Positions 8,375-30,572 of a stretch of 64,000 nt of DNA are shown here, piece by piece (positions within the stretch are counted from its first letter, which is position 1; each line of letters starts with the position of its first letter). The DNA lies in contig JAXGZN010000001.1 of NCBI GenBank assembly GCA_040776945.1, forward strand, positions 1 to 64,000, given 5' to 3'. The stretch is from Methanomassiliicoccaceae archaeon (GTDB taxonomy: Archaea; Thermoplasmatota; Thermoplasmata; Methanomassiliicoccales; Methanomassiliicoccaceae). The notes below the pieces were generated by a model, which was not told the DNA's origin, searched no databases, and saw only the letters and a program-made list of their open reading frames with translations. The translations under genes and the position numbers were made by a program.

Positions 8375-8384
8375 AGTGATCGGC

Positions 8385-10420: not shown

Positions 10421-10432
10421 TCTGGGGATCTT

Positions 10433-12826
10433 GTGAGAACGAGATACGTAGATTTGTTCATACAAGCTACAGGTTTCAAGCCCTACCCATACCAAATCGA
10501 GCTAGCTACCTCAGAGCATTGGCCAGAGGTCATAGAGGTAGAGACCGGAGTTGGAAAGACGGCAGCGATCGTCACAGCATGGCTTTTTAAGCGAAGGTTC
10601 TCGACCTGTGAAGCAAAGGCATCCACTCCAAGGCGACTTATCATTTGTTTACCGACCAGAGTGCTTGTGGAGCAGACCTATCTGTCTGCAATGAGCATCC
10701 TGAGGAGGCTGGGCATTGGATCTGATTTTTATGATACCGAAGGCAGACGTGACGATGGTGTGCTGATCTCAGTTCTTTGGGGCGGCGATGTAGATAATGA
10801 CATTGATCATTTTCCAGAACGCGATATGATAATCGTCGGAACTCAAGACATGCTCCTATCGAGAGCCCTTAACCGAGGATATGCGATGAGCAAGTTCCGA
10901 TGGCCCGCCCATTTTGCAATATTGAACAACGATTGCCTTTGGGTCATGGATGAGGTCCAACTCATGGGGCCAGGACTGCAGACATCAGCTCAGCTTGAGG
11001 CATTTCGTTCTCGGATGGGCACGGTAGGAAACCATTTTACGATATGGATGAGCGCAACAATGGACCTGACGGGCATCAATACGGTGGATCATCCTTTGGA
11101 CATGAACTATGTTCGAACCCTTAGGCTCAGTTCCGAGGATAAGGTCAATATGCAGGTGTCGTCGATCCTCGAAGCGAAAAAGACCGTCCGTGTATCTCCT
11201 GTGAACCTTGAGAAGGATGAGAAGAAGAACGGAAAGGCCATAGCTGCCAGGATAAAGGAGATCCATGAACCCGAGTCCCTTACCTTGGTCATAGTGAACA
11301 CAGTTTCGAGAGCTAGAGCTATCTTTTCTGAGCTTGAGAGGATGGGCGATAAGACACCCATTGTTCTCTTGCATTCCCATTATCGCCCATCCGATAGATC
11401 CCTTCAGTATGAGAGAATAAAGCAAGAGGACGACCTCATAGTTGTAAGCACGCAGGTGGTGGAGGCAGGCGCGGACATTTCATCAAAGAACATGATCACG
11501 GACCTAGCGCCATGGCCCTCTATGGTCCAGAGGTTCGGCCGTTGTAATCGTCGCGGTGAGCATTCCGAAGCGACCATCGAGTGGTTGGACCCAGGAATCG
11601 AACTCGATCCGAAGGGGGTGCTCCCCTATGAGGTCGATGACCTGTCGCATTCCCGTGAATTGATCATGAATCAATCCGATGGTTCGCCATCGGCCATTTC
11701 CAGACTGAGTGCTCAGCGTCCATCCAAGATCTTACCGGTCATAAGGCGTAAGGACCTGGTGGATCTGTTCGATACGACGCCTGATCTGTTGGGGAACGAG
11801 CTGGACATCTCTAGGTTCATCAGAGCGAACGACAACAAGGATGTTTTCGTGTTCTGGAGGACTATCATAGATGGAACGCCGAATGTGACAGCGGCGCCTT
11901 CTCCTGAGGAGCTGTGCAGCGTACCCATAGGCGATATATCAAAATTCGTGGATAAGAACGATGCATGGATCTGGGACCATGTGGTTGGGAAATGGTCAAA
12001 GATCTTGCAAGGTGAGGCACGGTCGGTCCGTCCGGGTCAAATAATCCTTCTTGATCGAGAAAAAGGAGGCTATTCGGCTTCAAGGGGATGGACAGGGTCC
12101 GAAAAGGATATCCCGACCGCCATCGAGAATCGAGAGGGGTTGAGGTCCGATAGTTTGAACTCCGATGCTTGGTCCGACACGGGGTGGATCACGCTTATGG
12201 ACCACACCGAACATGTGATCAAAGAGGTCGAAGGGCTTGGAACGGTGATTCCCCCTGAACACATGGATGTCCTTAAAGAGGCAGCCAAGTGGCATGACAT
12301 AGGTAAGGCCCATGAAGCTTTCCAGAACATGATCCTAATGGATGAGGGGAGGAGAGATGCAGTGTGGGGGAAAGCACCAAGACAGAACGGTGCTCAATTC
12401 TTCACGACCTCCAAAGAAGGAAGGAAAATCCTCAGGCCATATTTCCGTCATGAGCTGGCATCCGCTTTGGCATATATGGCCAGACAAGGGAGGAGTCCCA
12501 CGAACGACCTCATTGCATATCTGATCGCTGCGCATCACGGCAAGGTTAGAGTTACTCTTAGGTCGGTGCCATCTGAAAATGGACCGGATACCAGCACTCT
12601 GTTCGCACGAGGCGTATGGGATGGGGACGTGATAAGCTTCCCTGACATGATCGGCACCGATATAATTCTAGATCTAACCCCCATCCGCTTGGGAACCTCG
12701 AGCTGGTCAAACATGTCAATAAGGTTGCGTGATAGGATCGACATGGGCCCTTTTAGATTGGCCTATTTGGAAACGATGTTGCGCATTGCCGATTGGAGGG
12801 CTTCGAAGAAGGAGGCCATGGCATGA
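10433..12826 (+). CDS. cas3: Cas3 helicase-nuclease, type I-G arrangement (HD domain C-terminal)
   Basis: Walker A ETGVGKT, DEVQL, SAT and QRFGRCNR, with C-terminal WHDIGKA, HELAS and AHHGK. Likely start GTG 10433. Confidence 0.95.
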   Translation: MRTRYVDLFIQATGFKPYPYQIELATSEHWPEVIEVETGVGKTAAIVTAWLFKRRFSTCEAKASTPRRLIICLPTRVLVEQTYLSAMSILRRLGIGSDFYDTEGRRDDGVLISVLWGGDVDNDIDHFPERDMIIVGTQDMLLSRALNRGYAMSKFRWPAHFAILNNDCLWVMDEVQLMGPGLQTSAQLEAFRSRMGTVGNHFTIWMSATMDLTGINTVDHPLDMNYVRTLRLSSEDKVNMQVSSILEAKKTVRVSPVNLEKDEKKNGKAIAARIKEIHEPESLTLVIVNTVSRARAIFSELERMGDKTPIVLLHSHYRPSDRSLQYERIKQEDDLIVVSTQVVEAGADISSKNMITDLAPWPSMVQRFGRCNRRGEHSEATIEWLDPGIELDPKGVLPYEVDDLSHSRELIMNQSDGSPSAISRLSAQRPSKILPVIRRKDLVDLFDTTPDLLGNELDISRFIRANDNKDVFVFWRTIIDGTPNVTAAPSPEELCSVPIGDISKFVDKNDAWIWDHVVGKWSKILQGEARSVRPGQIILLDREKGGYSASRGWTGSEKDIPTAIENREGLRSDSLNSDAWSDTGWITLMDHTEHVIKEVEGLGTVIPPEHMDVLKEAAKWHDIGKAHEAFQNMILMDEGRRDAVWGKAPRQNGAQFFTTSKEGRKILRPYFRHELASALAYMARQGRSPTNDLIAYLIAAHHGKVRVTLRSVPSENGPDTSTLFARGVWDGDVISFPDMIGTDIILDLTPIRLGTSSWSNMSIRLRDRIDMGPFRLAYLETMLRIADWRASKKEAMA

Positions 12827-15899: not shown

Positions 15900-15903
15900 T
15901 CCC

Positions 15904-17469
15904 ATGCTCGTCATCAAGATGGGCTTTCCAGGAGGTAGATATTATGCCACCCCTTGGGATAAACATGTCAATGAGGGCTTGGTCGAGTGGCCTCCCTCCC
16001 CTTGGCGGTTCCTAAGGGCCATTATCTCTACTTGGTACACCAAGGGCGACGGGGTCAGTTTCGAGGTCCTGCAGGCCCTTGTAGAGAGACTGGCGATCCC
16101 GCCCGAGTTCGTCCTGCCCCCTGCCACGCTGGCTTCGACCTGTCACTATATGCCCTCATATCGTTCCACTTTAGATGGGAAGACTGTCAACGTCTACGAT
16201 GCGTTCGCTCATATCGGTGATGGTGCGCTGTACATCATCTGGAACGATGTGAACTTGGACAACGAACAAAGACAGGGCCTTGATACTCTCATATCAAGGA
16301 TGGGGTATCTCGGGAGGTCGGAGTCATGGGTCGAGGGGGGCGTGGTCGATCTCGATATTGCTCCAAATACCAGACTGGTAGATGATGCTTCCACGACTGA
16401 AAGCGTTTCTCCCGCTCTGTGCTGCCTTACTCCCCTGGAATATCTGAGTTGGAGAGGCAATATGATATCCACTCTCTTGGCTCAGAGAGAGAAGGAAAAG
16501 AGAGCAAAGGCTGATGCATCAGGAAAGGGATTCAAAGGACTATCGGCCAAGGATAAAAAGGATGTTGAGGCCCTTGTTCCGGCCACATTGTTCGAGGCTC
16601 TCCTGGTGGATACATCTGTGATTAGAGGAGCAGGATGGAGCGGCCCGCCCGGAAGCAAATGGGTTGGTTATCGCCTTCCTGAGGGAGCATTCCTCGTTCG
16701 ACCATCTAGAAAGGTGATCTCAAGGGACCTTCCTACAGTCGCAAGGTACAAGGTCCGCTCCAAGGTCCCCTTCATGATATTCGATGCAGTATCCCTTGGA
16801 GAAATGGCCCATAATAGCCTGGTCCGCCTTACCAACGGTTCCCGGACCTTTACAGGATGCGATGAGGAAGGCCGTCCGCTAAAGGAAGACCATGCCATGA
16901 TTCTCTCACATGGCATTAGCTCGAAGATAAACGGAATGAGGATCTCTGACCTGACCATCTACAGCAAGAATGGCTTTACTCCAGAAGATGTGAAAGCCCT
17001 ACGGTCCCTGAGATATCTTAACTGGAACAAGGATGTGGAGGTTACTCTGATCGGTGTGGGCCAATCATCTACTTTCAGCTCAGAAGAGGGGATCATCGCT
17101 CGGTCATCGCGCTGGGTCTCTGTTACGCCTTTTGTGCCTCCGAGATGTCCCAAGTTCACAAAGGGCGGCGTCCCGAAGAAGGACGATAACGGATTGCATA
17201 TCGGGTCTGCCGAACATGAGCTCCGCCGCCTGCTGGCAGAGAACAACTACCCGCAGGTCGAGCACATTGCATCCATACCTCGTGCTACGGTCGGGGGTTC
17301 TAGCCGAAGCTGGCTTTCGTTTCGAAGGCGGAGAAGTTCATCTGACCGAGGGCCACTAAATGAAGCAGGCTTCGGTTTTGAGGTACAATTTGTAGAGCCG
17401 ATAGATGGACCTCTTGCTCTTGGGTATGGGTGTCATTTCGGTCTGGGGCTTTTCCGTCCATTGAGGTGA
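15904..17469 (+). CDS. csb2: Type I-G Cas5/Cas6 fusion (Csb2)
   Basis: GRYYATPW...EWPPSPWR, YLGRSESWV, WVSVTPF and the C-terminal Gly-rich GPLALGYGCHFGLGLF. Confidence 0.92.
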   Translation: MLVIKMGFPGGRYYATPWDKHVNEGLVEWPPSPWRFLRAIISTWYTKGDGVSFEVLQALVERLAIPPEFVLPPATLASTCHYMPSYRSTLDGKTVNVYDAFAHIGDGALYIIWNDVNLDNEQRQGLDTLISRMGYLGRSESWVEGGVVDLDIAPNTRLVDDASTTESVSPALCCLTPLEYLSWRGNMISTLLAQREKEKRAKADASGKGFKGLSAKDKKDVEALVPATLFEALLVDTSVIRGAGWSGPPGSKWVGYRLPEGAFLVRPSRKVISRDLPTVARYKVRSKVPFMIFDAVSLGEMAHNSLVRLTNGSRTFTGCDEEGRPLKEDHAMILSHGISSKINGMRISDLTIYSKNGFTPEDVKALRSLRYLNWNKDVEVTLIGVGQSSTFSSEEGIIARSSRWVSVTPFVPPRCPKFTKGGVPKKDDNGLHIGSAEHELRRLLAENNYPQVEHIASIPRATVGGSSRSWLSFRRRRSSSDRGPLNEAGFGFEVQFVEPIDGPLALGYGCHFGLGLFRPLR

Positions 17470-17471
17470 GC

Positions 17472-19121
17472 ATGCCGGAAGAAGCATCTATTGAGCTCAT
17501 ACCTGCTAGGATGCTGAACGAGTTCGTCTACTGCCCTAGACTTTTTCACATTGAGTATGTTCAAGGCGATTTTGTAGACAGCGCAGATACCATTTCTGGC
17601 CGCTGGGACCACCGACGGGTGGATAAACCATCGGAAGAACTGGACGATGATGGTGGCTTCGGTAAGATCAAGGCGGTAACGATGTCCAGCGAAAGGTTTG
17701 GCCTCATCGCTAAGATGGACCTGGTTGAGTTGCAGGAAGGTCAAGTACTTCCTGTCGACTATAAACATGGTAAAAAGCCAGGCATCGAGGGGGGCGCGTG
17801 GCTCGCTGACAAGGTCCAACTTTGCGCCCAGGCCCTTGTGCTCCGAGAAAATGGATTCGACTGTAAGCAGGGTGCCATATATTATAAAGGTTCCAAGGAA
17901 CGTGTCTACATCGACATCTCCGACGAATTGATAGATAAGACACTTGATTTTGCTTCTCGGGCAAGAGAGGCCATTCATGGACCGCCTCCCAAACCCCTTG
18001 AGGACAGCCCCAAATGCGTAGGTTGCTCGCTTGCTGGCATTTGCCTTCCAGATGAGACCTCTCTCCTCGGAGAAAGCGAGAAAGATTTGGATGATCGCGT
18101 TAGGAGGCTTTACCCAGCAAGAGATGATGCCGCTCCTGCTTATGTGATCGAGCAGGGGGCCGTGGTGACAAAGAGTGGGGAAGAGCTTGTCATCAAGAAG
18201 AGCGGAGAGAAATTAGGCTCCATCAGATTGATGGAGCTTTCGCACCTATCCGTAATGGGCAATGTTCAGATAACCACTCAGACCGTCCATGAGCTCTGCG
18301 GAAGAGGAATACCGATCTGCTACCTCTCCACTGGTGGTTGGTTCTATGGGACCGCCCAAGGAATGGGCCACAAGAACGTTCAACTGCGCATCGCGCAATT
18401 TCGGAGGGCCGAGAATCCAGAGCGATCGCTGGAACTCGCACGGCGGTTTATTCAGGGCAAGATCAAGAACTGCCGGACCATGTTGCGCAGGAACAGCGAG
18501 CCGCCATCGGCCGCGGCCCTCGAAGTACTGGCCGATCTGATCCAAAAGGTCGGTGCTGCCATGGACCATGGGGAGTTGCTTGGTTTGGAGGGTTCGGCGT
18601 CCCGAGTGTACTTCTCTCACTTTCGGGACATGTTGTCCATAAAGGAAATGACCTTCGATATGACAACTCGCAATCGCCGGCCACCTAAGGACCCTGTGAA
18701 TGCTATGCTCTCCCTTGTCTATTCTATGCTTGCTAAGGATTGTACAGTGACCTTGCTCTCGGTCGGGTTCGATCCTCACTTGGGCTTTCTTCACCGTCCC
18801 CGATATGGCAAGCCTGCCCTGGCGCTCGACCTCATGGAAGAGTTCAGGCCGATCATTGGAGATTCGGTGGTCATAGGAGCGATAAATAACAGAGAGATCA
18901 CTGGGAACGATTTTGTTAAAGCAGGCAAAGCGGTAAGCTTGAGCGATAAGGGTAGGAGGACCCTAATTGCTGCTTACGAGCGAAGGATGGATACCCTTAT
19001 AAGACATCCCATTTTCGGCTATACCATAAGCTACCGAAGGACTCTCGAGGTCCAGGCTCGGTTGATGTCGAGGTTCGTGCTGGGAGAGATCAAAGACTAC
19101 GTACCGTTTTGCACGAGGTGA
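17472..19121 (+). CDS. cas1: Cas4-Cas1 fusion
   Basis: Cas4: EFVYCPR, PVDYKHG, QLCAQ, C..CSL...C. Cas1: LGLEG, RNRRPPKDPVNAMLS, LALDLMEEFRP. Confidence 0.95.
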   Translation: MPEEASIELIPARMLNEFVYCPRLFHIEYVQGDFVDSADTISGRWDHRRVDKPSEELDDDGGFGKIKAVTMSSERFGLIAKMDLVELQEGQVLPVDYKHGKKPGIEGGAWLADKVQLCAQALVLRENGFDCKQGAIYYKGSKERVYIDISDELIDKTLDFASRAREAIHGPPPKPLEDSPKCVGCSLAGICLPDETSLLGESEKDLDDRVRRLYPARDDAAPAYVIEQGAVVTKSGEELVIKKSGEKLGSIRLMELSHLSVMGNVQITTQTVHELCGRGIPICYLSTGGWFYGTAQGMGHKNVQLRIAQFRRAENPERSLELARRFIQGKIKNCRTMLRRNSEPPSAAALEVLADLIQKVGAAMDHGELLGLEGSASRVYFSHFRDMLSIKEMTFDMTTRNRRPPKDPVNAMLSLVYSMLAKDCTVTLLSVGFDPHLGFLHRPRYGKPALALDLMEEFRPIIGDSVVIGAINNREITGNDFVKAGKAVSLSDKGRRTLIAAYERRMDTLIRHPIFGYTISYRRTLEVQARLMSRFVLGEIKDYVPFCTR

Positions 19122-19125
19122 TGCT

Positions 19126-19416
19126 CTGAGGAACAGATATCTCGTTTGCTACGATATCTGCGAACCGAAACGTCTAAGGAAAACACATAGGAAAATGAGG
19201 GGCTACGGTGAAGCGTTACAATACTCGGTATTCCTATGCGAACTCTCCCTGAAGGAACGGGCGATCATGTTGACGGAACTCGATGAGATAATAAATCATG
19301 ACGAGGATTGTGTAATGACCATTGACCTTGGCGGGATCGATAGGGACATAGATGTCCGCGTTACCTTCCTGGGAGTGAAAAAGGAGATGCCTGGTCGACA
19401 GACCTTGATAATCTGA
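19126..19416 (+). CDS. cas2: Cas2
   Basis: In-frame extension of the 19195 ORF gives (L/M)RNRYLVCYDICEPKRLRK...GYGEALQYSVFLC. Start appears to be CTG 19126 after GAGGTGA. Confidence 0.9.
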   Translation: MRNRYLVCYDICEPKRLRKTHRKMRGYGEALQYSVFLCELSLKERAIMLTELDEIINHDEDCVMTIDLGGIDRDIDVRVTFLGVKKEMPGRQTLII

Positions 19417-19737
19417 ATCGATTATAGGGACAGATGAAAAAGGCCCGGCGGCGGCAGGGATTGTCGAACTCATCCGTCTCTTACACGGAAAGCCCGCTTC
19501 GAGAGCTCCTGAGCTGAAACAATCACGGGAGGCTCTCGACTGACTAGGCGGTGTTTGCTGGACATCGACCTGATCAGATAGATAGTGAACGATGAGGCGA
19601 CAATAATCATGTTCAGATCGAGACCGCTCGAAAAGGACATATTAACTGAAAATGAATAAGGCGTTAGAAACGTTTACCCATTTATGATTCATGATCGGGT
19701 CCTGAAAACACCGCAAAATAAGGCCATATTTAAGGCC
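19417..19737 (+). promoter_or_regulatory. CRISPR leader
   Basis: Non-coding, AT-richer near the array. Inverted repeat TCGAGAGC (19499-19506) / GCTCTCGA (19532-19539) and a related CGCTCGAAAA at 19625. Confidence 0.8.
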
Positions 19738-22700
19738 GTTACCACGTTCAACGGAACGTGGACGAATTGAAGCGAGGGGTGCGACCCCGCGGAATCACCT
19801 TGGTTACCGTTCAACGGAACGCATGACGATTAACTTCAACTCGTTGCAGGCATCGTGTCCGTTACCACGTTCAACGGAACGTGGACGAATTGAAGCTTCT
19901 TCAAGCCCGATCACAGATTTTCGAGCACGGTTACCACGTTCAACGGAACGTGGACGAATTGAAGCTTATGACGCCGAAGAAGATGAGACGCCAAGATCCA
20001 GAGTTACCACGTTCAACGGAACGTGGACGAATTGAAGCGGATGGAGCCGGAGGACCGATTGTACGTCACGTTACCGTTCAACGGAACGTGGACGAATTGA
20101 AGCGCGCTGCGGAACGCCGAAGAAGGCCAAGGACGAGGGGTTACCACGTTCAACGGAACGTGGACGAATTGAAGCCTGATGCCGCTGGCAGACGGAAGCC
20201 GAGTTACGTTCAACGGAACGTGGACGAATTAAGCGCCCAACCCGAGTGGTCCCATCCGGTTACCACGTTCAACGGAACGTGGACGAATTGAAGCGGGGTG
20301 ACGGAGGGGACCATCGAGGACGGGGCGGTCGTGTTACCACGTTCAACGGAACGTGGACGAATTGAAGCTATTGCTCGGGCTACTGGACCGGGGTCGATTT
20401 TACCGGTTACCACGTTCAACGGAACGTGGACGAATTGAAGCTTGGTGAGCTTCGCCTTGGCTTGGGGGAACTCGTCGAGTGTTACCACGTTCAACGGAAC
20501 GTGGACGAATTGAAGCAACGCCCCCGAGCTGATGGAGCTCATCCTCATGATGGTTACCACGTTCAACGGAACGTGGACGAATTGAAGCATCTCACTGCCA
20601 GGCCTGATCTTGTAGCTCTCTTTTGTTACCACGTTCAACGGAACGTGGACGAATTGAAGCACGCCTTCCGGGGCGGTATCGGGGCGCTCGCCTCCTCGTT
20701 ACCACGTTCAACGGAACGTGGACGAATTGAAGCCCGATCCGACGCTCTCCGACTATAAATGCAATATTGGGTTACCACGTTCAACGGAACGTGGACGAAT
20801 TGAAGCAGCCGTGAGCTGCGCGTGCTGTCCCTTCAGCGCCTGTTACCACGTTCAACGGAACGTGGACGAATTGAAGCCAGTTCGGACGATTCCAGAGCAA
20901 GGACCGGGACTAGTTACCACGTTCAACGGAACGTGGACGAATTGAAGCGATACGATGGCGGATGCCCCGGTGATGACGACGAAGTTACCACGTTCAACGG
21001 AACGTGGACGAATTGAAGCGGTGGACCGGGGGCGGCCCTCCAGCGCCAGGTACATGTTACCACGTTCAACGGAACGTGGACGAATTGAAGCAGGCCGGTG
21101 GCGAGGACGGCGTTGTGCGCCTCGCGGAGTTACCACGTTCAACGGAACGTGGACGAATTGAAGCTCGGGCAGGGTCCGTTCATAGCTTGAGGCCAACCTG
21201 ACCGGTTACCACGTTCAACGGAACGTGGACGAATTGAAGCTTTATCCAGCTCCAAATGGTCATCGTCGGTCACCTCGTTACCACGTTCAACGGAACGTGG
21301 ACGAATTGAAGCCTTCGAGACGGGGAAGGGCATGATGGGGCACAACATGTTACCACGTTCAACGGAACGTGGACGAATTGAAGCATGGACGGGGCGAACC
21401 TCCCCGAGATCCTGTCAGGCGTTACCACGTTCAACGGAACGTGGACGAATTGAAGCGCGGCCGGCATTGTGTGCAGCGTGCTGATCGTCAAGTTACCACG
21501 TTCAACGGAACGTGGACGAATTGAAGCCAGGCGGCCATCGCCGCGTTGATTATCCCCTGGATCAGTTACCACGTTCAACGGAACGTGGACGAATTGAAGC
21601 CACGCCGCCCAGGCGAAGGTCGAGCAAGTCGGCCCGTTACCACGTTCAACGGAACGTGGACGAATTGAAGCGTCGAGGGGCGCGACGGATGAACGAGGAC
21701 GAGCTCAGTTACCACGTTCAACGGAACGTGGACGAATTGAAGCTAGAAGGCCCCCCGCCCGCCGCGCAGGTGCTTAAAGTGTTACCACGTTCAACGGAAC
21801 GTGGACGAATTGAAGCCTGAAGTTCCTGGCAATCCTCCATCGCCTCGTTTGCCAGTTACCACGTTCAACGGAACGTGGACGAATTGAAGCACCTTTGTCC
21901 ATTGCCAATTCAACGGTGGCTGGGAAAGGTTACCACGTTCAACGGAACGTGGACGAATTGAAGCCTGGGAATAGACCGGGAATCTATTGTTGAATTTGTC
22001 GAGTTACCACGTTCAACGGAACGTGGACGAATTGAAGCCTCTGTCAACATTGCCATCATGTAGTGCATGGTAAGGGTTACCACGTTCAACGGAACGTGGA
22101 CGAATTGAAGCAGTACCCCTTGAGCGCCCCGATCCTCGGGACAGGGGGGTTACCACGTTCAACGGAACGTGGACGAATTGAAGCTTCGGGAGCGCGTACC
22201 ATCCATCGCCCAGGACGTCCCGGTTACCACGTTCAACGGAACGTGGACGAATTGAAGCCGTACCCAGACCGTTGACGAACGCGATGCTCACCGAGTTACC
22301 ACGTTCAACGGAACGTGGACGAATTGAAGCTTCTTCATCTCTCGATCCTCTTCGTGAGTAGCCATGTTGTTACCACGTTCAACGGAACGTGGACGAATTG
22401 AAGCTTCCTCCCATTCGTCATCTTGCGTATTTTTCTTCACTGTTACCACGTTCAACGGAACGTGGACGAATTGAAGCTTTGTTTGTTTCTTTACATACTC
22501 CGCTGGAACTCGGGGGTTACCACGTTCAACGGAACGTGGACGAATTGAAGCGGGGATGGTCTCAGGGGGGCCAGGGCACTAAAGGCCGTTACCACGTTCA
22601 ACGGAACGTGGACGAATTGAAGCACGCTCTCCGTCGCCCCGGCGTACATCATGACCCAGGTTACCACGTTCAACGGAACGTGGACGAATTGAAGCCTCAC

Positions 22701-25700
22701 CGGCTCGGTGATGAACACCGGACCGTCAGCGGCCAGGTTACCACGTTCAACGGAACGTGGACGAATTGAAGCCTTCCCGCTTGGCCTCGTAAGCGGCCCT
22801 GGCCTGGCTGAGTTACCACGTTCAACGGAACGTGGACGAATTGAAGCCAGACCACCCCCGGAGACAGGGCCCGACCGAAATCCCGTTACCACGTTCAACG
22901 GAACGTGGACGAATTGAAGCATTGTCATCGTATAAGCTTCTTGCACTGCCCTAACAGGTTACCACGTTCAACGGAACGTGGACGAATTGAAGCTTGGTGT
23001 AGCCGTCCACGCACTTCGGGCACCTCGCGTCGTTACCACGTTCAACGGAACGTGGACGAATTGAAGCATGGCGTTCCAGGCGGCCTCGAAGATGCCCTTG
23101 AGCGGTTACCACGTTCAACGGAACGTGGACGAATTGAAGCTTCTCTCATAATGTGAAACCTCCTTCGATGAACGCCTGTTACCACGTTCAACGGAACGTG
23201 GACGAATTGAAGCAGGACCTCCGCTGGCACGAAGTTCGTCCCGGCGATGGATGGTTACCACGTTCAACGGAACGTGGACGAATTGAAGCTAAACCAATAA
23301 TCCACGTCCTTTTGCAGGTAAAAGGTTCGTTACCACGTTCAACGGAACGTGGACGAATTGAAGCTGGTGATAACCTCCCCCTCCATCGACACGCGCAACG
23401 GTTACCACGTTCAACGGAACGTGGACGAATTGAAGCGGAGCGGCCAGCAGGGAGCGGGCGAACAGACCTGGAGGTTACCACGTTCAACGGAACGTGGACG
23501 AATTGAAGCATCGCATTGCTGGACTTCCCAGGTCTTCGATTCAAGTTACCACGTTCAACGGAACGTGGACGAATTGAAGCATCACAGCCGCCGCCCCCCC
23601 AGCGCCTCGATCAGCTGTTACCACGTTCAACGGAACGTGGACGAATTGAAGCTTCAAGCTCCAAGATTCCTTCGAGAAAATCTCGCTGGTTACCACGTTC
23701 AACGGAACGTGGACGAATTGAAGCTGATGGATGAAGCGGACCTCGGCCGGCAGCAGGCGGGTTACCACGTTCAACGGAACGTGGACGAATTGAAGCCTAA
23801 AGACCTCCCTATATATTTCGCTGAAATCTACTGTTACCACGTTCAACGGAACGTGGACGAATTGAAGCCAGGCAAATAATATTGCCAGTATAAAAGCGGA
23901 TAAGACGTTACCACGTTCAACGGAACGTGGACGAATTGAAGCGTCGGAAATGGCGACGGGTCGTCCATAACATACTCCGGTTACCACGTTCAACGGAACG
24001 TGGACGAATTGAAGCGTTTCATGTATATTCGTCAGGTCCAACGCTCTAGCACGTTACCACGTTCAACGGAACGTGGACGAATTGAAGCAACCCACATACC
24101 TGTAGGTATATTGTTCACACTCTTTTGTTACCACGTTCAACGGAACGTGGACGAATTGAAGCATAAAGGAGGCGATCTTGGTTGATATTCATCATTTTGC
24201 GTTACCACGTTCAACGGAACGTGGACGAATTGAAGCTATGTAGGAATGAAATGATACAAGCGACAAGACCAAAGTTACCACGTTCAACGGAACGTGGACG
24301 AATTGAAGCCGGACCGAACGAGAGATACCACGCCAGGCGGTATTGCCGTTACCACGTTCAACGGAACGTGGACGAATTGAAGCGAGGAATTCATCAGCTT
24401 CTCGGCCTTATCAAGCCAGTAGTTACCACGTTCAACGGAACGTGGACGAATTGAAGCGTCTAAGAGATATTATGCATTGACGCAATATTTCAGTTACCAC
24501 GTTCAACGGAACGTGGACGAATTGAAGCCTGTCGGGCGAGTGAGTTGTTACGAAAAGGAAAAAATAGTTACCACGTTCAACGGAACGTGGACGAATTGAA
24601 GCTAGCCCTGGTTCGAGCCGGTGGTGTCCCATTCCTGACCGGTTACCACGTTCAACGGAACGTGGACGAATTGAAGCCGAGTTAATTTATTCTTCGACTT
24701 CACTGGAGCATTAGGTTACCACGTTCAACGGAACGTGGACGAATTGAAGCTGATGGGTCGAAAACTCCCGTACCAGACGATTGATTTGTTACCACGTTCA
24801 ACGGAACGTGGACGAATTGAAGCGTGTCGCCCCTGCCGCGACCAGGATACAATCTCCACGTTACCACGTTCAACGGAACGTGGACGAATTGAAGCATCGT
24901 TTTTTAAGGGGTGTTTAGGCATGTCTGGCTCGTTACCACGTTCAACGGAACGTGGACGAATTGAAGCTTGGCCTCCGGGTATTCATCGAGGATGTCCAGG
25001 ACGTTACCACGTTCAACGGAACGTGGACGAATTGAAGCGGCTTTACGGTATGCCAATATACCAGCCCATTTTTATAGTTACCACGTTCAACGGAACGTGG
25101 ACGAATTGAAGCAATCTCAGGGCTGTGGATGAAAATGTTGGATATGGCGTTACCACGTTCAACGGAACGTGGACGAATTGAAGCATTGACACAGAAATTC
25201 TCTATTCCCAGAACATTGTTGTTACCACGTTCAACGGAACGTGGACGAATTGAAGCGACGAGCGGATCGACGCGATGAAGCGCCGCCTCGGGTTACCACG
25301 TTCAACGGAACGTGGACGAATTGAAGCGAGCTGGAAGGCCAAGAGGAAATGCTGGAAAAGCTGTTACCACGTTCAACGGAACGTGGACGAATTGAAGCCG
25401 TCAGATCGTCGGTGGAACACCAGCTCATAACTTGAGTTACCACGTTCAACGGAACGTGGACGAATTGAAGCATCGCGCTCTTGGGCATCGCTTACGTCGG
25501 TTATGCCGTTACCACGTTCAACGGAACGTGGACGAATTGAAGCTTTTTCAAAACTAGCGCCGTGGACCCAGACGATAGTAAGGTTACCACGTTCAACGGA
25601 ACGTGGACGAATTGAAGCGACGATCCCTGATTGTTACGGTATATGTATTGACTGGGTTACCACGTTCAACGGAACGTGGACGAATTGAAGCTGCTGGAAC

Positions 25701-27651
25701 ACCACGCGGTCGGCGGCTGGCGTGTTGGGTTACCACGTTCAACGGAACGTGGACGAATTGAAGCATGACCGACCCATACTGCCACGCCGACGTCCACCTG
25801 GTTACCACGTTCAACGGAACGTGGACGAATTGAAGCAACATAGCGACGGCATAGAACAACATGAACATCACAGTTACCACGTTCAACGGAACGTGGACGA
25901 ATTGAAGCTCATAAGCGGTAGATAATGGGTTGGCCCCTGTATAACGTTACCACGTTCAACGGAACGTGGACGAATTGAAGCCCGGCGAAGCCCTTGAGGA
26001 TGGAGGAGCGGCACACCAGTTACCACGTTCAACGGAACGTGGACGAATTGAAGCTCGCCTGATATGGTAGTATTTTAGTGCAGACGCCATGTTACCACGT
26101 TCAACGGAACGTGGACGAATTGAAGCTTTTCGAACGACTGTAAATCTGAACCTACAGACTCGTGTTACCACGTTCAACGGAACGTGGACGAATTGAAGCC
26201 TCATTGTGAAGCACTAGACGCTGGTCCTCATAATAGGTTACCACGTTCAACGGAACGTGGACGAATTGAAGCTCGGACGGGACCGGAACGGGAGCCTGCG
26301 GTGGGGGGTTACCACGTTCAACGGAACGTGGACGAATTGAAGCTCGGTATCTCCGGAAAGAGGCTATCGAGCGCTCTCCTAGTTACCACGTTCAACGGAA
26401 CGTGGACGAATTGAAGCTGCGACCGCAGCTCCGCCAACCATTCCTCTGACCTCGTTACCACGTTCAACGGAACGTGGACGAATTGAAGCGACTTCATGGG
26501 ACAGAGGATTGCACCCTTCGGTTGGTTACCACGTTCAACGGAACGTGGACGAATTGAAGCTTGATCTCTCTGTTCCCGCAGGTAGGGCATCGGTCCCGTT
26601 ACCACGTTCAACGGAACGTGGACGAATTGAAGCAATCTTACCTTGCCCCCGCCCATAAGCTGGATGGCTAGTTACCACGTTCAACGGAACGTGGACGAAT
26701 TGAAGCCTTCTCTCTCGCCGAGCGCTCGCCGGCGCTCATGGCCGTTACCACGTTCAACGGAACGTGGACGAATTGAAGCAAATATGGCCTTGTTTCGGGC
26801 ATACATTACAGCCAATGTTACCACGTTCAACGGAACGTGGACGAATTGAAGCCAACATCGCCAGGTATGTCTTGAGAGGCGTGAGCATGTTACCACGTTC
26901 AACGGAACGTGGACGAATTGAAGCTTATCACCTCAGGACGCATTGGGCTGTATGACCTGCGTTACCACGTTCAACGGAACGTGGACGAATTGAAGCATGA
27001 TGTAGTCCTGGATGATGCTCATGGCCGCGTTGATGGTTACCACGTTCAACGGAACGTGGACGAATTGAAGCCCCTCCTAGCTGGGACTTGTAGACCTCCA
27101 TGTGATGTTACCACGTTCAACGGAACGTGGACGAATTGAAGCCTTTTAGGCTTACCTAATTAGGCTTACCTAAATCATAGTTACCACGTTCAACGGAACG
27201 TGGACGAATTGAAGCTTTTCTGATATTAGTAACGGGAAGCGAATGAAAACCGGGTTACCACGTTCAACGGAACGTGGACGAATTGAAGCGGTATTTCCTG
27301 ATGAGGAATGACAAGACCAATAGGAGTTACCACGTTCAACGGAACGTGGACGAATTGAAGCGCTGTGGATGGACGGTTATCTCACCATGTTGGACTCGTT
27401 ACCACGTTCAACGGAACGTGGACGAATTGAAGCTCTTTGCTCAGGTCACTTCCTCCTCTTCTTTCCGGGTTACCACGTTCAACGGAACGTGGACGAATTG
27501 AAGCAATGCAGACGCCATAGTTACAATAATTGCAACCTAAGGTTACCACGTTCAACGGAACGTGGACGAATTGAAGCCAGCTCTGGGTGCTCAACGACGT
27601 GGTTGACCTGCCGGCGTTACCACGTTCAACGGAACGTGGACGAATTGAAAC
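19738..27651 (+). CRISPR. CRISPR array, ~110 repeats of GTTACCACGTTCAACGGAACGTGGACGAATTGAAGC (36 bp), spacers mostly 34-41 bp
   Basis: Direct reading and manual count. Internal hairpin CCACGTTC-aacg-GAACGTGG, 3' ATTGAAGC handle. The last canonical repeat (27616-27651) ends GAAAC. Confidence 0.99.
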
Positions 27652-27810
27652 TTGAAGCAACCGGAGCAAGGCCTGATGCGCCGTTGTTTCAAAGAAAATA
27701 ACATCACCAAACCCAATAGGACGTGGACATATGGGACTGAGGAACACGGACACGGGCGGGTACACCGCTATCCCATTGCCACATTAATCGGATGCAGGTG
27801 AAGTGAGACC
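27652..27810 (+). CRISPR. Cryptic degenerate tail of the array: two atypical repeats (27703-27738, 27775-27810) with alaS-derived spacers
   Basis: Ungapped identity to the consensus repeat is 21/36 and 19/36. They start exactly 72 bp apart and enclose a 36-bp spacer. Confidence 0.8.
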
Positions 27811-27887
27811 TGATGTAATGACATAGAATACAAGGTGGATTCAACAAATCAAAACAATTAAATGAATCGCCATGTTACTCACCCAGC

Positions 27888-30572
27888 ATGTCCGAGTTCG
27901 ACCTTTCATTTTTCAAGGATAATAATTTCATACGTCATGTCTGCCCCAAGTGCGGCCGGGCGTTCTGGTCCCAGGGAGACTGGGAGACATGCGGTGAGCC
28001 TCCCTGCGAAGAATACACCTTCATCGGCCATTCCCCAATGACCAAGCCGATGAGCGTGCATGAAATGAGAGAAGCGTATCTTTCATTTTTCGAGTCCAAT
28101 GGTCATGGCCGCGTACGCCGCTATCCCATTGTTGCGCGATGGAGAGATGATGTCTTCTTCGTGCAAGCCAGCATCTATGATTTTCAACCATGGGTGATTT
28201 CTGAAGTTGTCGAACCCCCCCATAATCCTCTCGTCATCTCTCAGACATGCGTACGATTTAACGACATCGACAACGTCGGGAAGACTGGCCGCCATTTCAC
28301 TTTTTTTGAAATGTGCGCACATCATGTCTTTAACAAGCCTGGCCATGAGATTTATTTCAAGGACGGAACCGTCGAGCTCTGTCATCAGCTACTGACCGAG
28401 CGCCTTGGAGTAGACCCTAAAAGGATCAGGTATATCGAGGAGTGGTGGGAGGGAGGAGGTAACTCTGGACCATGTGTCGAGGTCATTCTCGAGGGAGTCG
28501 AGATCGCCACGCTAGTGTTCATGCAATATCGCGAAACCCCTGAGGGGCGTGTGTCCATGGACATGAAGGTAGTGGACACCGGCTATGGCCTTGAGAGACT
28601 GACCTGGGTCTCCCAGGCCACGCCCTCAGCCTACGATGCGATCTTCGGCCCGGTGGTCCGAGACTTGAAGGACCGGTTGGGGATCGAGACCAACGACCGC
28701 ATAATGGAACAATATAGCAAGATCGCCGGCGCGATGAACATGAAGACCGCCGCCGATGTACGCCTGCTGAGAGAACGGACCGCCGAGCGAATCGGCATAT
28801 CGTACGACGAGCTCATGCGCAACGTCGCGCCTCTCGAAGATATATATGTGGTCTGCGACCACTCCCGCGCGCTCGCCTTCATGCTCAATGACGGCGTCGT
28901 TCCGTCCAACGTCCGAGAGGGCTACTTCGCCCGCATGCTGGTGCGCAGGGCCCTCAGGTCGATGCGCTCTCTCGATCTCAAGATGCCGCTGGCCGACATC
29001 GTCGCCATGCAGATCGATTACTTCTCGCCGCACTTCCCCGAACTCGTGGAGAACCGCGAGGACATCATGTCCCTGGTCGAGGTCGAGGAGCAGCGCTACT
29101 ATGAGACGCTGGATCGCGGCCGCTCCATCGTCCAGCGCATGACCAAGGACCTGAAGGGCGCCCCCATCACCCTGGACATGCTCATCGAGCTGTACGACTC
29201 CCACGGCCTCAACCCAGAGATAGTCAAGGAGTTCTCCGATGTTCCGGTGGAGATCCCTGACAACTTCTACATGCAGGTCGCAAAGAGGCACGAGACCGCC
29301 AAGATGGCCGAGGACGAAGGGCCGAAGGACGAGGAATACCCACTGGACATGCCGGAGACGGTGATGTCCTACTATGATGACCCTGAGGTCATGGCCTTCG
29401 AGGCCGAGGTCGTAGCCGTCATCAACGGCGCGGTGGTGCTCGATCACACCTACTTCTATCCCGAGGGCGGCGGCCAGGAGGCGGACTACGGCACCATGGA
29501 CGGCCGCGAGGTCGTCAACGCGCAGAAGGTCCGCAACACCATCCTGCACTTCCTGGACGGCAAGCACGGCATCAAGGTGGGCGACCGCGTCACCTGCGCC
29601 ATCAACGAGGCGCGCCGCCGGCAGCTGATGCGCCACCACACCGCGGCCCACATCATCAACGGCTCCGCCCGCGACATGCTGGGCAACCACGTGTGGCAGT
29701 CAGGCGCGCACAAGAGCGTGGACGAGGCCCGCTTGGACATCACTCACTTCGAGAACCTGTCCGAAGAGCAGCGCGCCCAGCTGGAAAAGAGGTGCAACGA
29801 GGTCGTGCTCGAGGACCATCCTGTGGAGATCAAGTTCATGCGGCGCGACGAGGCCGAGGCCAAGTTCGGCTTCCGGCTGTACCAGGGCGGCGTCGTGCCG
29901 GGCAAGATCATCCGTGTGGTCAACACCACCGGGGTGGACGTGGAGGCGTGCGGGGGGCTGCATTGCGACCGCACCTCAAGGGTCGGGCCGATACGCATCC
30001 TGCGCACGAAGAGGATCCAGGACGGCGTGGTAAGGATCGAGTACTCGGCGGGCCTTGCGGCGGTCAGCGGGATGCAGTCGGACAAGGCATGCGTGGACCA
30101 ATTGGCAGACAAGATGAACGTCGGGCGGGAGGCGCTCCTTCCCGCGGCGGTGAAGCTGCTCAGCGAGGTCAAGGAGGACCGCAAGCGCATGGAGGCCATG
30201 GCCGCCAAGCTCAACCGGATCATGGCCGACAGTCTGCTGGACAAGGCCCCTCAAGTCGACGGAGCGAAGGCGGTGGTGTACCTGGCCGCCGAGGACGAGG
30301 ACCCTCAGGCCCTATCGCTCGCCTTGACCTCACGCCCCGGAGTCATTGCCGTCCTGGGCCTTGCGAACAAGAGCCCCAAGCTGTTCGTGTCCCGCTCTCA
30401 TGACGTAAATCTGGACTGCAGGCCAGTGCTCAAGGAGATCATGAAACTGGTCGGCGGCGGGGGCGGCGGAAAGCCGGACTTCGCGCAGGGAGGGGGCGGC
30501 GACCCGGAAAAGCTGCCTGCGGCAATGGACAGGGCGCTGGACATCATCAGGGCGGCAATGGCCAAGAAGTGA
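27888..30572 (+). CDS. alaS: Alanine--tRNA ligase (archaeal type)
   Basis: RYPIVARWRDD, ASIYDFQP, NPLVISQ.C.R..DIDNVG.TGRH, VDTGYGLER, DHSRAL, editing motif HHTAAH...CGGLH and C-Ala GGGGG. Confidence 0.98.
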   Translation: MSEFDLSFFKDNNFIRHVCPKCGRAFWSQGDWETCGEPPCEEYTFIGHSPMTKPMSVHEMREAYLSFFESNGHGRVRRYPIVARWRDDVFFVQASIYDFQPWVISEVVEPPHNPLVISQTCVRFNDIDNVGKTGRHFTFFEMCAHHVFNKPGHEIYFKDGTVELCHQLLTERLGVDPKRIRYIEEWWEGGGNSGPCVEVILEGVEIATLVFMQYRETPEGRVSMDMKVVDTGYGLERLTWVSQATPSAYDAIFGPVVRDLKDRLGIETNDRIMEQYSKIAGAMNMKTAADVRLLRERTAERIGISYDELMRNVAPLEDIYVVCDHSRALAFMLNDGVVPSNVREGYFARMLVRRALRSMRSLDLKMPLADIVAMQIDYFSPHFPELVENREDIMSLVEVEEQRYYETLDRGRSIVQRMTKDLKGAPITLDMLIELYDSHGLNPEIVKEFSDVPVEIPDNFYMQVAKRHETAKMAEDEGPKDEEYPLDMPETVMSYYDDPEVMAFEAEVVAVINGAVVLDHTYFYPEGGGQEADYGTMDGREVVNAQKVRNTILHFLDGKHGIKVGDRVTCAINEARRRQLMRHHTAAHIINGSARDMLGNHVWQSGAHKSVDEARLDITHFENLSEEQRAQLEKRCNEVVLEDHPVEIKFMRRDEAEAKFGFRLYQGGVVPGKIIRVVNTTGVDVEACGGLHCDRTSRVGPIRILRTKRIQDGVVRIEYSAGLAAVSGMQSDKACVDQLADKMNVGREALLPAAVKLLSEVKEDRKRMEAMAAKLNRIMADSLLDKAPQVDGAKAVVYLAAEDEDPQALSLALTSRPGVIAVLGLANKSPKLFVSRSHDVNLDCRPVLKEIMKLVGGGGGGKPDFAQGGGGDPEKLPAAMDRALDIIRAAMAKK

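What the first reader, a model, noticed from the sequence alone, without database searches (positions are those of the whole stretch)
10433..28850. Candidate natural CRISPR 'cleave-and-rescue' homing / gene-drive element built on the essential alaS gene
Seen: (1) a complete type I-G system with intact-looking Cas3; (2) the three oldest spacers of the array, two of them among atypical repeats, all match the first ~450 bp of the gene next door, alaS, each beside a TTN triplet; (3) matches are only 55-72%, with many differences at third codon positions, so the guides derive from another alaS allele; (4) the resident alaS 5' region has foreign, A/T-ending codon usage; (5) no integrase or transposase. 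Known: type I-G systems use TTN PAMs, Cas3 degrades DNA processively, alaS is essential, and many Euryarchaeota are polyploid with efficient gene conversion. Inference: the cassette cuts island-free alaS alleles and supplies a recoded, immune 5' alaS as repair template. It would thereby copy itself, or prevent its own loss, like a homing endonuclease but RNA-guided and transposase-free. I know of engineered versions of this logic but not a described natural one. Alternatives: Cascade-mediated regulation of alaS by partial pairing, or an old autoimmunity event followed by escape.
Basis: partly seen in the sequence, partly recalled or inferred. Interest (0 to 1): 0.95.

Follow-up and report, generated by a model that had tools for sequence, protein, structure and literature searches.

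The report
Fossil CRISPR spacers against neighbouring alaS
The oldest guides of a large archaeal CRISPR array were copied from an earlier or foreign version of the essential gene next door, whose targeted part has since been swapped for a divergent copy; this looks like the scar of an old conflict, not a working gene drive.

Summary
A complete type I-G system (10349-19416) is followed by an array of 110 repeats (19738-27651) that abuts alaS (27888-30572).

- **Spacers.** The last canonical spacer (27578-27615) and a decayed one (27739-27774) derive from alaS. They reach 31/38 and 30/38 identity to relatives' alleles, against at most 70% for the other 107 spacers and for shuffles. A third (27668-27704) is borderline. 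All three map to alaS nt 205-443, each beside a TTN triplet.
- **Resident alaS.** Codons 31-320 form a foreign patch: GC3 is 56-77% against 89% downstream, and the trees are incongruent (AU p 0.015).

The gene-drive reading is not supported as a working device:
- No allele in 261 genomes of the order matches the live guide better than 31/38.
- All listed alleles differ from it at guide position 5.
- The other two guides lie between decayed repeats that no longer fold.
- The patch is not contiguous with the island and is shared with species G002.
- Species G007 keeps a relic repeat beside a native alaS.

My best reading is an old burst of acquisition from array-adjacent alaS, after which the target was replaced. 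New here: the site between the TPP-enzyme gene and alaS is this family's recurrent CRISPR site, and an unrelated I-C array beside alaS also holds one alaS-derived spacer.

The parts
8304..9983 (+). Left flank: gene for a thiamine-pyrophosphate enzyme (acetolactate-synthase-like). In many relatives it lies directly upstream of alaS.
   Evidence: Pfam TPP_enzyme N, M and C domains. It is adjacent to alaS in G004, G005, G001, G008, G003 and many relatives of the order. GC3 is 82%.
10349..12826 (+). cas3g, with the helicase first and the HD nuclease at the C-terminus. The true start may lie a little downstream.
   Evidence: NCBIfam cas3_GSU0051 at 721 bits, matching from residue 33. Pfam DEAD, Helicase_C, Cas3-like_C_2 and Cas3_HD. 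GC3 is 55%.
12793..14964 (+). cas8g1/csx17, the large subunit
   Evidence: NCBIfam cas_csx17 at 644 bits
14961..15899 (+). cas7g/csb1
   Evidence: Pfam Cas_GSU0053; NCBIfam cas7_GSU0053
15904..17469 (+). csb2, the Cas5-Cas6 fusion that processes the crRNA
   Evidence: NCBIfam cas5_6_GSU0054 at 150.8 bits. Its role is described in PMC9638904 (passages read).
17430..19121 (+). cas4g/cas1g fusion
   Evidence: NCBIfam cas4g_cas1g at 754 bits. The closest relative among species-representative genomes is 60% identical.
19123..19416 (+). cas2
   Evidence: Pfam CRISPR_Cas2; NCBIfam cas2
19417..19737 (+). Leader (inferred)
   Evidence: AT-rich stretch between cas2 and the first repeat. Where my repeat finder saw an array in the other I-G loci, it mostly lies in the same position.
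19738..27651 (+). CRISPR array of 110 repeats of 36 nt and 109 spacers
   Evidence: The repeat forms an 8-bp hairpin of -11.1 kcal/mol.
27578..27615 (+). sp109, the last canonical spacer, derived from alaS nt 298-335 in the sense orientation. A perfect repeat precedes it, and a repeat with one mismatch follows.
   Evidence: 21/38 to the resident gene; 31/38 to G009; 30/38 to G007, G004 and G008. A Phe-codon TTN stands directly 5' of the protospacer. The spacer has CTN where the alleles have CCN.
27668..27704 (+). T1, a borderline alaS-like segment matching alaS nt 407-443 on the antisense strand
   Evidence: 25/37 to the resident gene, which 0 of 1000 shuffles reached. With other boundaries it is 23/38, the background median.
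27703..27738 (+). Candidate decayed repeat 111
   Evidence: 21/36 to the consensus; no hairpin. MAFFT placed the G007 solo repeat opposite it.
27739..27774 (+). T2, a decayed oldest spacer derived from alaS nt 205-240 in the sense orientation
   Evidence: 26/31 core match, E 3e-5. The 38-mer 27742-27779 is 27/38 to the resident gene and 30/38 to G001 and G021.
27775..27810 (+). Candidate decayed repeat 112, 72 nt after candidate 111
   Evidence: 19/36 to the consensus; no hairpin
27888..30572 (+). alaS, encoding alanyl-tRNA synthetase of 894 aa, intact
   Evidence: Pfam tRNA-synt_2c, tRNA_SAD and DHHA1
27978..28847 (+). Foreign recombinant patch in alaS (codons 31-320). It holds the three protospacer sites at 28092-28132, 28185-28222 and 28294-28330.
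   Evidence: GC3 is 56% and 77% against 89% downstream. Identity to same-genus alleles is 67-72% here and 77-87% downstream. Trees are incongruent, AU p 0.0149.

Best explanation
These are fossils of an old CRISPR attack on the neighbouring gene, not a working device.

Proposed history:
1. A type I-G locus sat in the family's usual CRISPR site, between the TPP-enzyme gene and alaS.
2. While the array was still short, its integration site lay only a few hundred bases from the 5' part of a native, GC-rich alaS.
3. DNA beside an active array is a known hot spot for spacer capture. One self-derived spacer was taken beside a TTN PAM. Priming then added one or two more from the same 240 bp.
4. The lineage survived. 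In the branch leading to G000 and G002, codons 31-320 were replaced by a divergent allele through homologous recombination. That allele pairs with none of the guides.
5. In G007 the CRISPR locus shrank to a single repeat and alaS stayed native.
6. The array then grew by 108 further spacers, which pushed the alaS-derived ones to the trailer. Two of them decayed together with their repeats.

Shown: the origin of the spacers, their PAMs, their position in the array, the mosaic gene, and the relic in G007.
Inferred: the order of events, capture from the cell's own copy, and that replacement of the target was selected as an escape.
For: - **Real alaS origin.** sp109 and T2 are clear outliers against 17 alleles. 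sp109 starts exactly after the Phe-codon TTN. This fits the PAM processing by Cas4-Cas1 and the priming reported for this subtype (PMC6547450, passages).
- **Source allele is of the genus type.** sp109 matches same-genus alleles that lack the patch at 29-31/38, and the resident at 21/38.
- **Position.** All three are the last units of the array, and none of the other 107 spacers matches alaS. With the array as a DNA query against 24 family genomes, the only hit in a known core gene is sp109 on G007 alaS. Three weaker hits were not identified.
- **Hot spots at active arrays.** These were shown experimentally in Pyrococcus furiosus and are cited there for E. coli (PMC5737086, passages).
- **Self-targeting can be tolerated.** It induces adaptation and is tolerated in Haloferax volcanii (PMC7521656, abstract only).
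- **The patch is internal and covers all three protospacers.** Codons 1-30 are 82-87% identical to G002, G007, G001 and G009 and 59-66% to three genomes outside the genus. Codons 30-320 are 67-72% identical to everything except G002.
- **The patch is old.** G000 and G002 are sisters within it at 99% support, and the AU test rejects monophyly of the genus there.
- **Alternative outcome in G007.** A solo repeat of the same family lies about 175 nt upstream of a native alaS, and there are no cas genes.
- **No present function.** See the mismatches and the unfoldable flanking repeats.
Against: - A point mutation in the seed would be a far easier escape than importing an allele that differs by about 30%. 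The patch may therefore be unrelated to the spacers. It covers 32% of the gene, so the overlap with the protospacers could be chance.
- The GC3 of the patch (56%) equals that of the cas genes (54-60%). That would also fit arrival of cassette and patch together.
- G000 and G002 differ more inside the patch (77-82% identity) than downstream (86%). This hints at separate imports from related donors.
- The repeats around sp109 carry 0 and 1 changes, so the spacer has probably not decayed much. Its source is then an allele not sampled here, which may be foreign and not the cell's own.
- A trailer that survives since before a species split is unusually old for a CRISPR array.
- The flanks of the G007 solo repeat are not demonstrably homologous to T1, T2 or sp109. 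One alignment reached p about 0.01.
- Ploidy and tolerance of self-targeting are unknown for this order.
Confidence: 0.5

Rival explanations
1. Record of a recombination event with incoming DNA. CRISPR cassettes at this site are exchanged between lineages by homologous recombination, with one crossover inside alaS. The spacers were captured from the non-resident allele, either the displaced native 5' segment or DNA of a related species recombining at this locus. The resident patch was already immune, so no autoimmunity ever occurred.
For: - The site is a recurrent CRISPR locus holding different subtypes: I-G in G000; I-C-like in G015, L126, L127 and L131; other arrays in G009, G021 and G023.
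- GC3 at the 5' end of alaS is lowered beside such cassettes in G000, G002, G015 and L127.
- The GC3 of the patch equals that of the cas genes.
- In P. furiosus, regions where a plasmid recombined with the chromosome were acquisition hot spots (PMC5737086).
- L127's I-C array holds an alaS-derived spacer that matches other alleles (27/33) better than its own (25/33).
- In 4 of 10 same-genus assemblies, contigs break within or next to the 5' part of alaS or the 3' end of the TPP gene.
Against: - Spacers taken on arrival would sit at the leader end, in front of the donor's older spacers. Here they are the very last.
- The foreign tract is not contiguous with the cassette: codons 1-30 resemble the genus, and the promoter does so more loosely.
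- The G007 relic suggests that the array predates the patch.
- No donor was found. The closest Cas4/Cas1 is 60% identical. No protein is closer than 89% to patch residues 30-225, apart from one near-identical hit at 99%.
Confidence: 0.2
2. One reading: a selected, RNA-guided cleave-and-rescue or homing element. Guides cut alaS alleles of chromosomes that lack the cassette. Cas3 resects towards the insertion site. Repair from the cassette-bearing chromosome copies the cassette together with an immune alaS 5' part.
For: - The guides come from the allele type of cassette-free genomes, and the resident allele is immune.
- The two firm protospacers lie on the sense strand. By the known 3'-to-5' movement of Cas3 on the non-target strand (PMC9638904), degradation would run towards the insertion site. 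This step is inference.
- In Haloferax, CRISPR targeting of a mating partner biased recombination towards the targeting strain and raised the share of CRISPR-positive recombinants (bioRxiv 10.1101/2025.06.18.660351, abstract and section 7).
- A second array of another subtype beside alaS also carries an alaS-derived spacer.
Against: - The best match of the only processable guide is 31/38 among 261 genomes of the order, and all 18 alleles listed by the relaxed pattern mismatch at position 5.
- Two guides are dead.
- There is no sign of selection to keep the guides matched. Both CCN-to-CTN differences fall on proline codons that are invariant in every allele I saw.
- The cassette was found in 1 of 11 genomes of the genus.
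- Patch and cassette are not contiguous.
- Deletion of the cassette would not restore a cleavable allele, so the design gives no protection against loss.
- L126 (12 spacers), L131 (36), G015 (113) and G009 (63) have no alaS spacer.
- Fifteen other I-G arrays show no match to their own flank.
Confidence: 0.1
3. Regulation. crRNA-like transcripts from the trailer guide Cascade to the resident alaS by partial pairing and tune its expression, as CreA-type RNAs do for other genes.
For: Degenerate repeat-like units flank a spacer that is 71% identical to the resident gene, beside a TTN.
Against: - Pairing is poor at the PAM-proximal end. For T2 only the first 3 bases pair before a run of mismatches, and the identity sits at the far end. 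sp109 mismatches the resident gene at positions 3, 5 and 6.
- The targets lie inside the coding region, not in a promoter.
- The flanking units do not fold, so processing by Csb2 is unlikely.
Confidence: 0.03
4. Chance resemblance, or a remnant of a duplicated alaS 5' end and not spacers at all.
For: T1 is borderline, and the decayed 'repeats' are not significant individually.
Against: - sp109 lies between two good repeats and is a clear outlier.
- The three segments are not collinear with the gene and lie on both strands.
- The sp109 match begins exactly at a PAM.
Confidence: 0.02

Closest known systems
Self-targeting CRISPR spacers (autoimmunity followed by escape). The general literature is recalled, not read here. 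Adaptation induced by self-targeting in Haloferax: PMC7521656, abstract only.
   Same: Spacers copied from the host's own kind of chromosome beside a correct PAM. The present target no longer matches. A sister lineage (G007) has lost the CRISPR locus.
   Different: The target is an essential gene directly beside the array. The spacers are the oldest of the array, not recent ones. The mismatch comes from an imported tract of about 870 nt, not from a point mutation, a deletion or loss of cas genes.
Spacer-acquisition hot spots around active CRISPR arrays (Shiimori et al. 2017, PMC5737086, passages read; Levy et al. 2015 as cited there)
   Same: It explains why DNA next to an array is sampled, and why only the earliest spacers, taken while the array was short, come from alaS.
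   Different: Those are laboratory snapshots of spacers that are normally lost. Here such spacers would have been kept over evolutionary time.
CRISPR targeting that biases recombination during archaeal mating (Choudhary et al. 2025, bioRxiv 10.1101/2025.06.18.660351, abstract and section 7 read)
   Same: Cas3-dependent damage to a partner's chromosome favours the CRISPR-bearing genome among recombinants.
   Different: That work used engineered targets in Haloferax with a type I-B system. There was no linked immune copy of an essential gene and no natural guides against a neighbour gene.
Synthetic Cleave-and-Rescue drive (Oberhofer et al. 2019, PMC6442612, search listing and start of abstract only)
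   Same: The layout is the same: a nuclease with guides against an essential gene, next to a version of that gene which the guides cannot cut.
   Different: The guides here match no known allele well enough. The 'rescue' is a natural foreign allele shared with a species in which no cassette was found. Spread has not been shown.
Homing spacers of CRISPR-associated transposons, flanked by atypical repeats (PMC9723613, search listing only; details recalled)
   Same: A spacer at the end of an array, between atypical repeats, that matches the conserved gene beside the element.
   Different: There are no Tn7-like genes. Cas3 is present and looks intact. Identity to the resident gene is only 55-71%.

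Membership tests
Type I-G (formerly I-U) CRISPR-Cas | Signature genes cas3g, cas8g/csx17, csb1/cas7g, csb2 (Cas5-Cas6 fusion), the cas4-cas1 fusion and cas2 | tested here: met
   All six score above the NCBIfam cut-offs. Pfam agrees, except for cas8, which has no Pfam hit, and csb2, which falls just below its cut-off.
Type I-G (formerly I-U) CRISPR-Cas | TTN PAM 5' of the protospacer | tested here: met
   TTT or TTC stands directly before the sp109 and T2 protospacers in 17 of 17 alleles. The PAM itself is established in PMC6547450. Only 2-3 protospacers are known for this array.
Type I-G (formerly I-U) CRISPR-Cas | 36-nt hairpin repeat of the I-G family, with the array downstream of cas2 | tested here: met
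   The repeat forms an 8-bp stem. Nearly all arrays that my finder detected downstream of cas2 in the other I-G loci have repeats with the same 3' motif.
Cleave-and-rescue / homing gene drive | Guides that can cleave the wild-type allele of the essential gene | tested here: not met
   The best match is 31/38 among 261 genomes of the order, and all 18 listed alleles mismatch at guide position 5. T1 and T2 lack functional repeats. Cleavage itself was not testable.
Cleave-and-rescue / homing gene drive | A tightly linked copy of the essential gene that resists cleavage | tested here: met
   The resident alaS is 236 nt from the array and differs from the guides at 17/38, 12/37 and 11/38 positions. 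The divergent tract starts only at codon 31.
Cleave-and-rescue / homing gene drive | Evidence of spread: the cassette always linked to the immune allele, and over-represented among relatives | tested here: inconclusive
   The cassette occurs in 1 of 11 genomes of the genus. The patch also occurs in G002, whose locus is unassembled.
CRISPR-associated transposon (homing spacer) | Tn7-like transposition genes and a CRISPR effector without nuclease | tested here: not met
   Only cas genes lie between 9984 and 27887, and Cas3g with its HD domain is present.
CreA-like or crRNA-like regulatory RNA | A spacer whose PAM-proximal part pairs with a promoter target, flanked by repeat-like units | tested here: not met
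   The PAM-proximal bases mismatch the resident gene, and the targets lie in the coding region. That PAM-proximal pairing is required is recalled from the literature.
Self-targeting spacer with escape | A spacer derived from the host's own locus, with the target later altered or the system lost | tested here: inconclusive
   Origin from the genus-type allele and the altered target are shown. That the source was the cell's own copy is inference.

The most novel reading that the evidence does not exclude
In Methanomassiliicoccaceae, CRISPR cassettes at the site between the TPP-enzyme gene and alaS act as drive-like elements. They carry guides against the alaS alleles of cassette-free relatives or chromosome copies. 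After DNA exchange, or within a polyploid cell, Cas3 damage to those alleles would be repaired from the cassette-bearing chromosome. That repair would co-convert the cassette and an immune alaS 5' tract. The fossil guides in G000 (I-G) and the alaS-derived spacer in L127 (I-C) would be two traces of this process. The AT-shifted 5' ends of alaS in G000, G002, G015 and L127 would be its footprints.
Probability: 0.1. Interest if true: 0.9.

Novelty: new variant of a known kind. Interest (0 to 1): 0.5.

Why it matters
If the favoured reading is right, this is a rare natural record of CRISPR turned against an essential neighbour gene, and of how a lineage resolved it. One branch replaced the target, and another lost the CRISPR locus.

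It also shows that one intergenic site serves as the CRISPR locus of a whole archaeal family. Cassettes of different subtypes are exchanged there, and the flanking essential gene becomes a mosaic.

A second alaS-derived spacer sits in an unrelated I-C array at the same site. This makes a testable question of whether CRISPR targeting of flanking alleles promotes exchange of cassettes. That effect has so far been seen only with engineered targets in Haloferax.

The organism occurs in anaerobic digesters and sludge: 20 runs from 6 studies hold this stretch. Material for experiments should therefore exist.

Tried and rejected
- **Gene remnant.** I first took the alaS-like segment at 27748-27778 for a remnant of a displaced alaS 5' end. 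I rejected this because the segments are not collinear, lie on both strands, have spacer length, and sp109 lies between good repeats.
- **G007 flanks.** I tested whether the sequences beside the G007 solo repeat are orthologues of T1, T2 or sp109. They are not significant (p 0.27-0.99). One alignment of the upstream flank to alaS reached p about 0.01, favoured AT-rich alleles, and is left as a hint.
- **Survey of other I-G arrays.** Fifteen arrays (about 420 spacers) were compared with their own 3.2-kb downstream flank. None exceeded 0.66, and the null maximum was 0.65. This test cannot detect spacers from non-resident alleles.
- **G015 and G009 arrays against alaS and TPP alleles.** Maxima were 0.70 and 0.74. 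The two G009 hits at 0.74 did not hold up on inspection.
- **Donor search.** No protein is closer than 89% to patch residues 30-225, apart from one near-identical hit at 99%. No Cas4/Cas1 is closer than 60%.
- **Population variants.** Contigs of 4 runs from 3 studies, laid on 27578-30600, showed no other letters and no form without the cassette. In two runs, contigs join the leader directly to the last repeat. I take that for collapse of the array during assembly, not a real deletion. Parts without cover in runs X17 and X20 say nothing.
- **Viral contigs.** A relaxed sp109 pattern found 0 matches.
- **Metagenome scan.** It returned only 7 loci, none like G000 or G002.
- **Not available or not used.** I ran no structure or complex predictions, since no claim needed them. 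Supplementary files were not consulted.

Full report
**What is there.** The window is the first 64 kb of contig 1 of a 2.17-Mb genome. Protein names among the hits place it in the Methanomassiliicoccales. One same-genus genome is labelled Methanomassiliicoccus sp.

Between a TPP-enzyme gene (8304-9983) and alaS (27888-30572) lies a block of lower G+C, about 0.50-0.55 against 0.62-0.68 in the flanks. It holds a complete type I-G operon. NCBIfam names cas3g, cas8g1/csx17, csb1/cas7g, csb2, cas4g/cas1g and cas2, all above their cut-offs (Pfam).

After a 320-nt leader comes an array of 110 repeats of 36 nt with 109 spacers, at 19738-27651. The repeat folds into an 8-bp hairpin. In most of the 80 other I-G loci where my repeat finder saw an array, it follows cas2 and its repeat ends in the same 8-nt motif. 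No ORF with a mobility domain lies in the block.

**The spacers.** I compared every spacer, without gaps and on both strands, with 17 full-length alaS alleles from relatives.
- The last canonical spacer, sp109 (27578-27615), reaches 31/38.
- A segment behind the last good repeat, T2 (38-mer 27742-27779), reaches 30/38.
- The other 107 spacers, and shuffled spacers, stay at or below 70%.
- sp109 corresponds to alaS nt 298-335 and T2 to nt 205-245. Both are in the sense orientation and in frame.
- Both protospacers follow a Phe codon, that is TTT or TTC, in all 17 alleles. sp109 starts exactly after it. TTN is the PAM shown for this subtype, and priming was shown for it too (PMC6547450, passages).
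- The third segment, T1 (27668-27704), matches resident alaS nt 407-443 on the other strand at 25/37. None of 1000 shuffles reached that. With other boundaries it is no better than background, and part of the match is A/T-rich. I call it borderline.
- Two repeat-like units at 27703-27738 and 27775-27810 bracket T2 at the canonical spacing of 72 nt. They match the repeat at only 21/36 and 19/36, are not significant alone and do not fold.

Three consecutive trailer units map within 240 nt of the neighbouring gene.

**The source allele.** sp109 is 21/38 identical to the resident gene but 29-31/38 to the same-genus alleles that lack the patch. A relaxed pattern with up to 3 mismatches, run over 261 genomes of the order, listed 18 alaS alleles and found none better than 31/38. 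In every allele seen there and in the family, two proline codons (CCN) stand where the spacer has CTN. One of them falls on guide position 5. In other type I systems that position belongs to the seed. This is recalled knowledge and has not been established for I-G.

The repeats around sp109 carry 0 and 1 changes. The spacer has therefore probably changed little, and it comes from a genus-type allele that is not sampled. One candidate is this lineage's own former allele.

**The mosaic gene.** GC3 by segment:

| Segment | GC3 |
|---|---|
| alaS codons 31-220 | 56% |
| alaS codons 221-320 | 77% |
| alaS codons 321-894 | 89% |
| cas genes | 54-60% |
| TPP-enzyme gene | 82% |

Pairwise identities show three zones.
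- Codons 1-30 of G000 are 82-87% identical to G002, G007, G001 and G009, and 59-66% to three genomes outside the genus.
- In codons 30-320, G000 is 67-72% identical to every genome except G002. Other members of the genus are 73-86% identical to each other there.
- After codon 320, G000, G002 and G007 are 86-87% identical.

The trees agree. In codons 321-890 the genus is one clade. In codons 31-320, G000 and G002 are sisters (99%) and fall outside a clade, supported at 100%, that holds the rest of the genus and two other genera of the family. Holding the genus together costs 48.5 log-likelihood units (AU p 0.0149).

The patch is therefore real. It is internal to the gene, it covers all three protospacer sites, and either it predates the split of G000 and G002 or it was imported twice from related donors. 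Identity inside the patch is 77-82% against 86% downstream.

**The neighbourhood in relatives.**
- The TPP-enzyme gene lies directly upstream of alaS in G004 and G005 (a gap of about 100 nt or less), G001, G008 and G003 (360-580 nt), and in many genomes of the order.
- I-G Cas7 and the repeat were found in none of 10 other genomes of the genus.
- G007 has 1.4 kb at this site, with one repeat of the same family about 175 nt upstream of alaS, and its alaS is native.
- Other cassettes occupy the same site: an I-C-like system in G015 and another array with a cas1 in G009.
- Repeats lie within 1 kb upstream of alaS in G021 and G023. I-C arrays abut alaS on three metagenome contigs, L126, L127 and L131.
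- In G002 the contigs end inside the TPP gene and 41 nt before alaS, so its state is unknown.

**A second case.** On L127 an I-C array of 72 repeats points towards alaS. One of its 71 spacers, in mid-array, matches alaS nt 750-782 on the minus strand. Identity is 27/33 to two alleles and 25/33 to its own, and the peptide matches in frame. All its other spacers stay at or below 0.71. GC3 of L127's alaS is 52-68% in codons 1-240 and 80-98% further on. That 5' part is also more divergent than expected. L126 (12 spacers), L131 (36), G015 (113) and G009 (63) hold no convincing alaS spacer.

**Weighing the readings.**

Against a working drive:
- The only guide that can be processed matches no known allele well.
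- The other two guides are dead.
- Nothing indicates selection to keep the guides matched.
- The cassette is rare in the genus.
- The immune tract is separated from the cassette by a promoter and first 30 codons that resemble the genus.
- The patch is shared with G002.
- G007 shows an array relic beside a native gene.

In favour of the drive:
- The guides come from the allele type of cassette-free genomes.
- The strand of the two firm protospacers would send Cas3 towards the insertion site. This is inference from the 3'-to-5' polarity stated in PMC9638904.
- In Haloferax, CRISPR targeting biased recombination towards the CRISPR-bearing strain (bioRxiv 10.1101/2025.06.18.660351, abstract and section 7).

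The reading that explains the most facts with known mechanisms runs as follows. Active arrays are acquisition hot spots (PMC5737086, passages). A young, short array would sample the 5' part of alaS. Priming would give a burst of spacers. The lineage then either replaced the target (G000, G002) or lost the system (G007). I give this 0.5.

A variant holds that the spacers were taken from incoming or displaced DNA during exchange of cassettes at this hot spot. It gets 0.2. It explains the equal GC3 of patch and cas genes, but not the trailer position of the spacers.

The drive gets 0.1, regulation 0.03 and chance 0.02.

**Limits.**
- Most relatives are draft assemblies from metagenomes, in which arrays and islands are often missing.
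- The donor of the patch and the source allele of the spacers are unsampled.
- Expression, ploidy and interference could not be tested.

Noticed in passing
window 9984-27887; L035, L036, L037, L010, L013, L126, L127, L131: The gap between the TPP-enzyme gene and alaS is a recurrent CRISPR site in this family. It holds I-G in G000, a solo repeat in G007, I-C-like systems in G015, L126, L127 and L131, and other arrays in G009, G021 and G023. It is empty in G001, G003, G004, G005 and G008.
   Followed up: partly
L127 (reverse complement), spacer at about 2637-2669: An I-C array next to alaS on a metagenome contig holds one mid-array spacer derived from alaS nt 750-782. Identity is 27/33 to other alleles and 25/33 to its own. 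The 5' 240 codons of that alaS also have low GC3.
   Followed up: yes
window 19803-19836, 20070-20103, 20203-20235: Three repeats near the leader end are variants: one is strongly degenerate and two carry deletions of 2-3 nt. Decay is normally expected at the trailer end, not here.
   Followed up: no
run X17, laid on window 27616-27649: A contig of repeat, spacer and repeat at depth 31 carries a 40-nt spacer that is absent from the window. Arrays of this organism therefore differ between samples, which suggests continuing acquisition.
   Followed up: partly
G002, G003, G006, G010: In 4 of 10 same-genus assemblies, contigs break within or next to the 5' third of alaS or the 3' end of the TPP gene. 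This could reflect strain-level heterogeneity at this locus.
   Followed up: no
window about 10040-10050: At the left junction a 9-nt word equals the start of the conserved alaS promoter block of G002 and G007. It may be a trace of the original intergenic region. A chance match is not excluded (roughly 1 in 20).
   Followed up: no
G000 C1:945770-945800 and C2:453729-453762: Two further partial matches of the array to the organism's own genome: a leader-end spacer at 26/28 identity, and a stretch that spans a spacer end and part of a repeat at 88% over 34 nt. I did not identify the targets.
   Followed up: no
P0007: In one public record a protein of 1114 aa joins a TPP-enzyme C-terminal domain to AlaS. 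The two genes are therefore called as one ORF there, which fits an empty site with no gap.
   Followed up: no
L127 (reverse complement), about 4219 and 4417: The same 35-nt spacer occurs twice in this I-C array, so part of the array has been duplicated.
   Followed up: no
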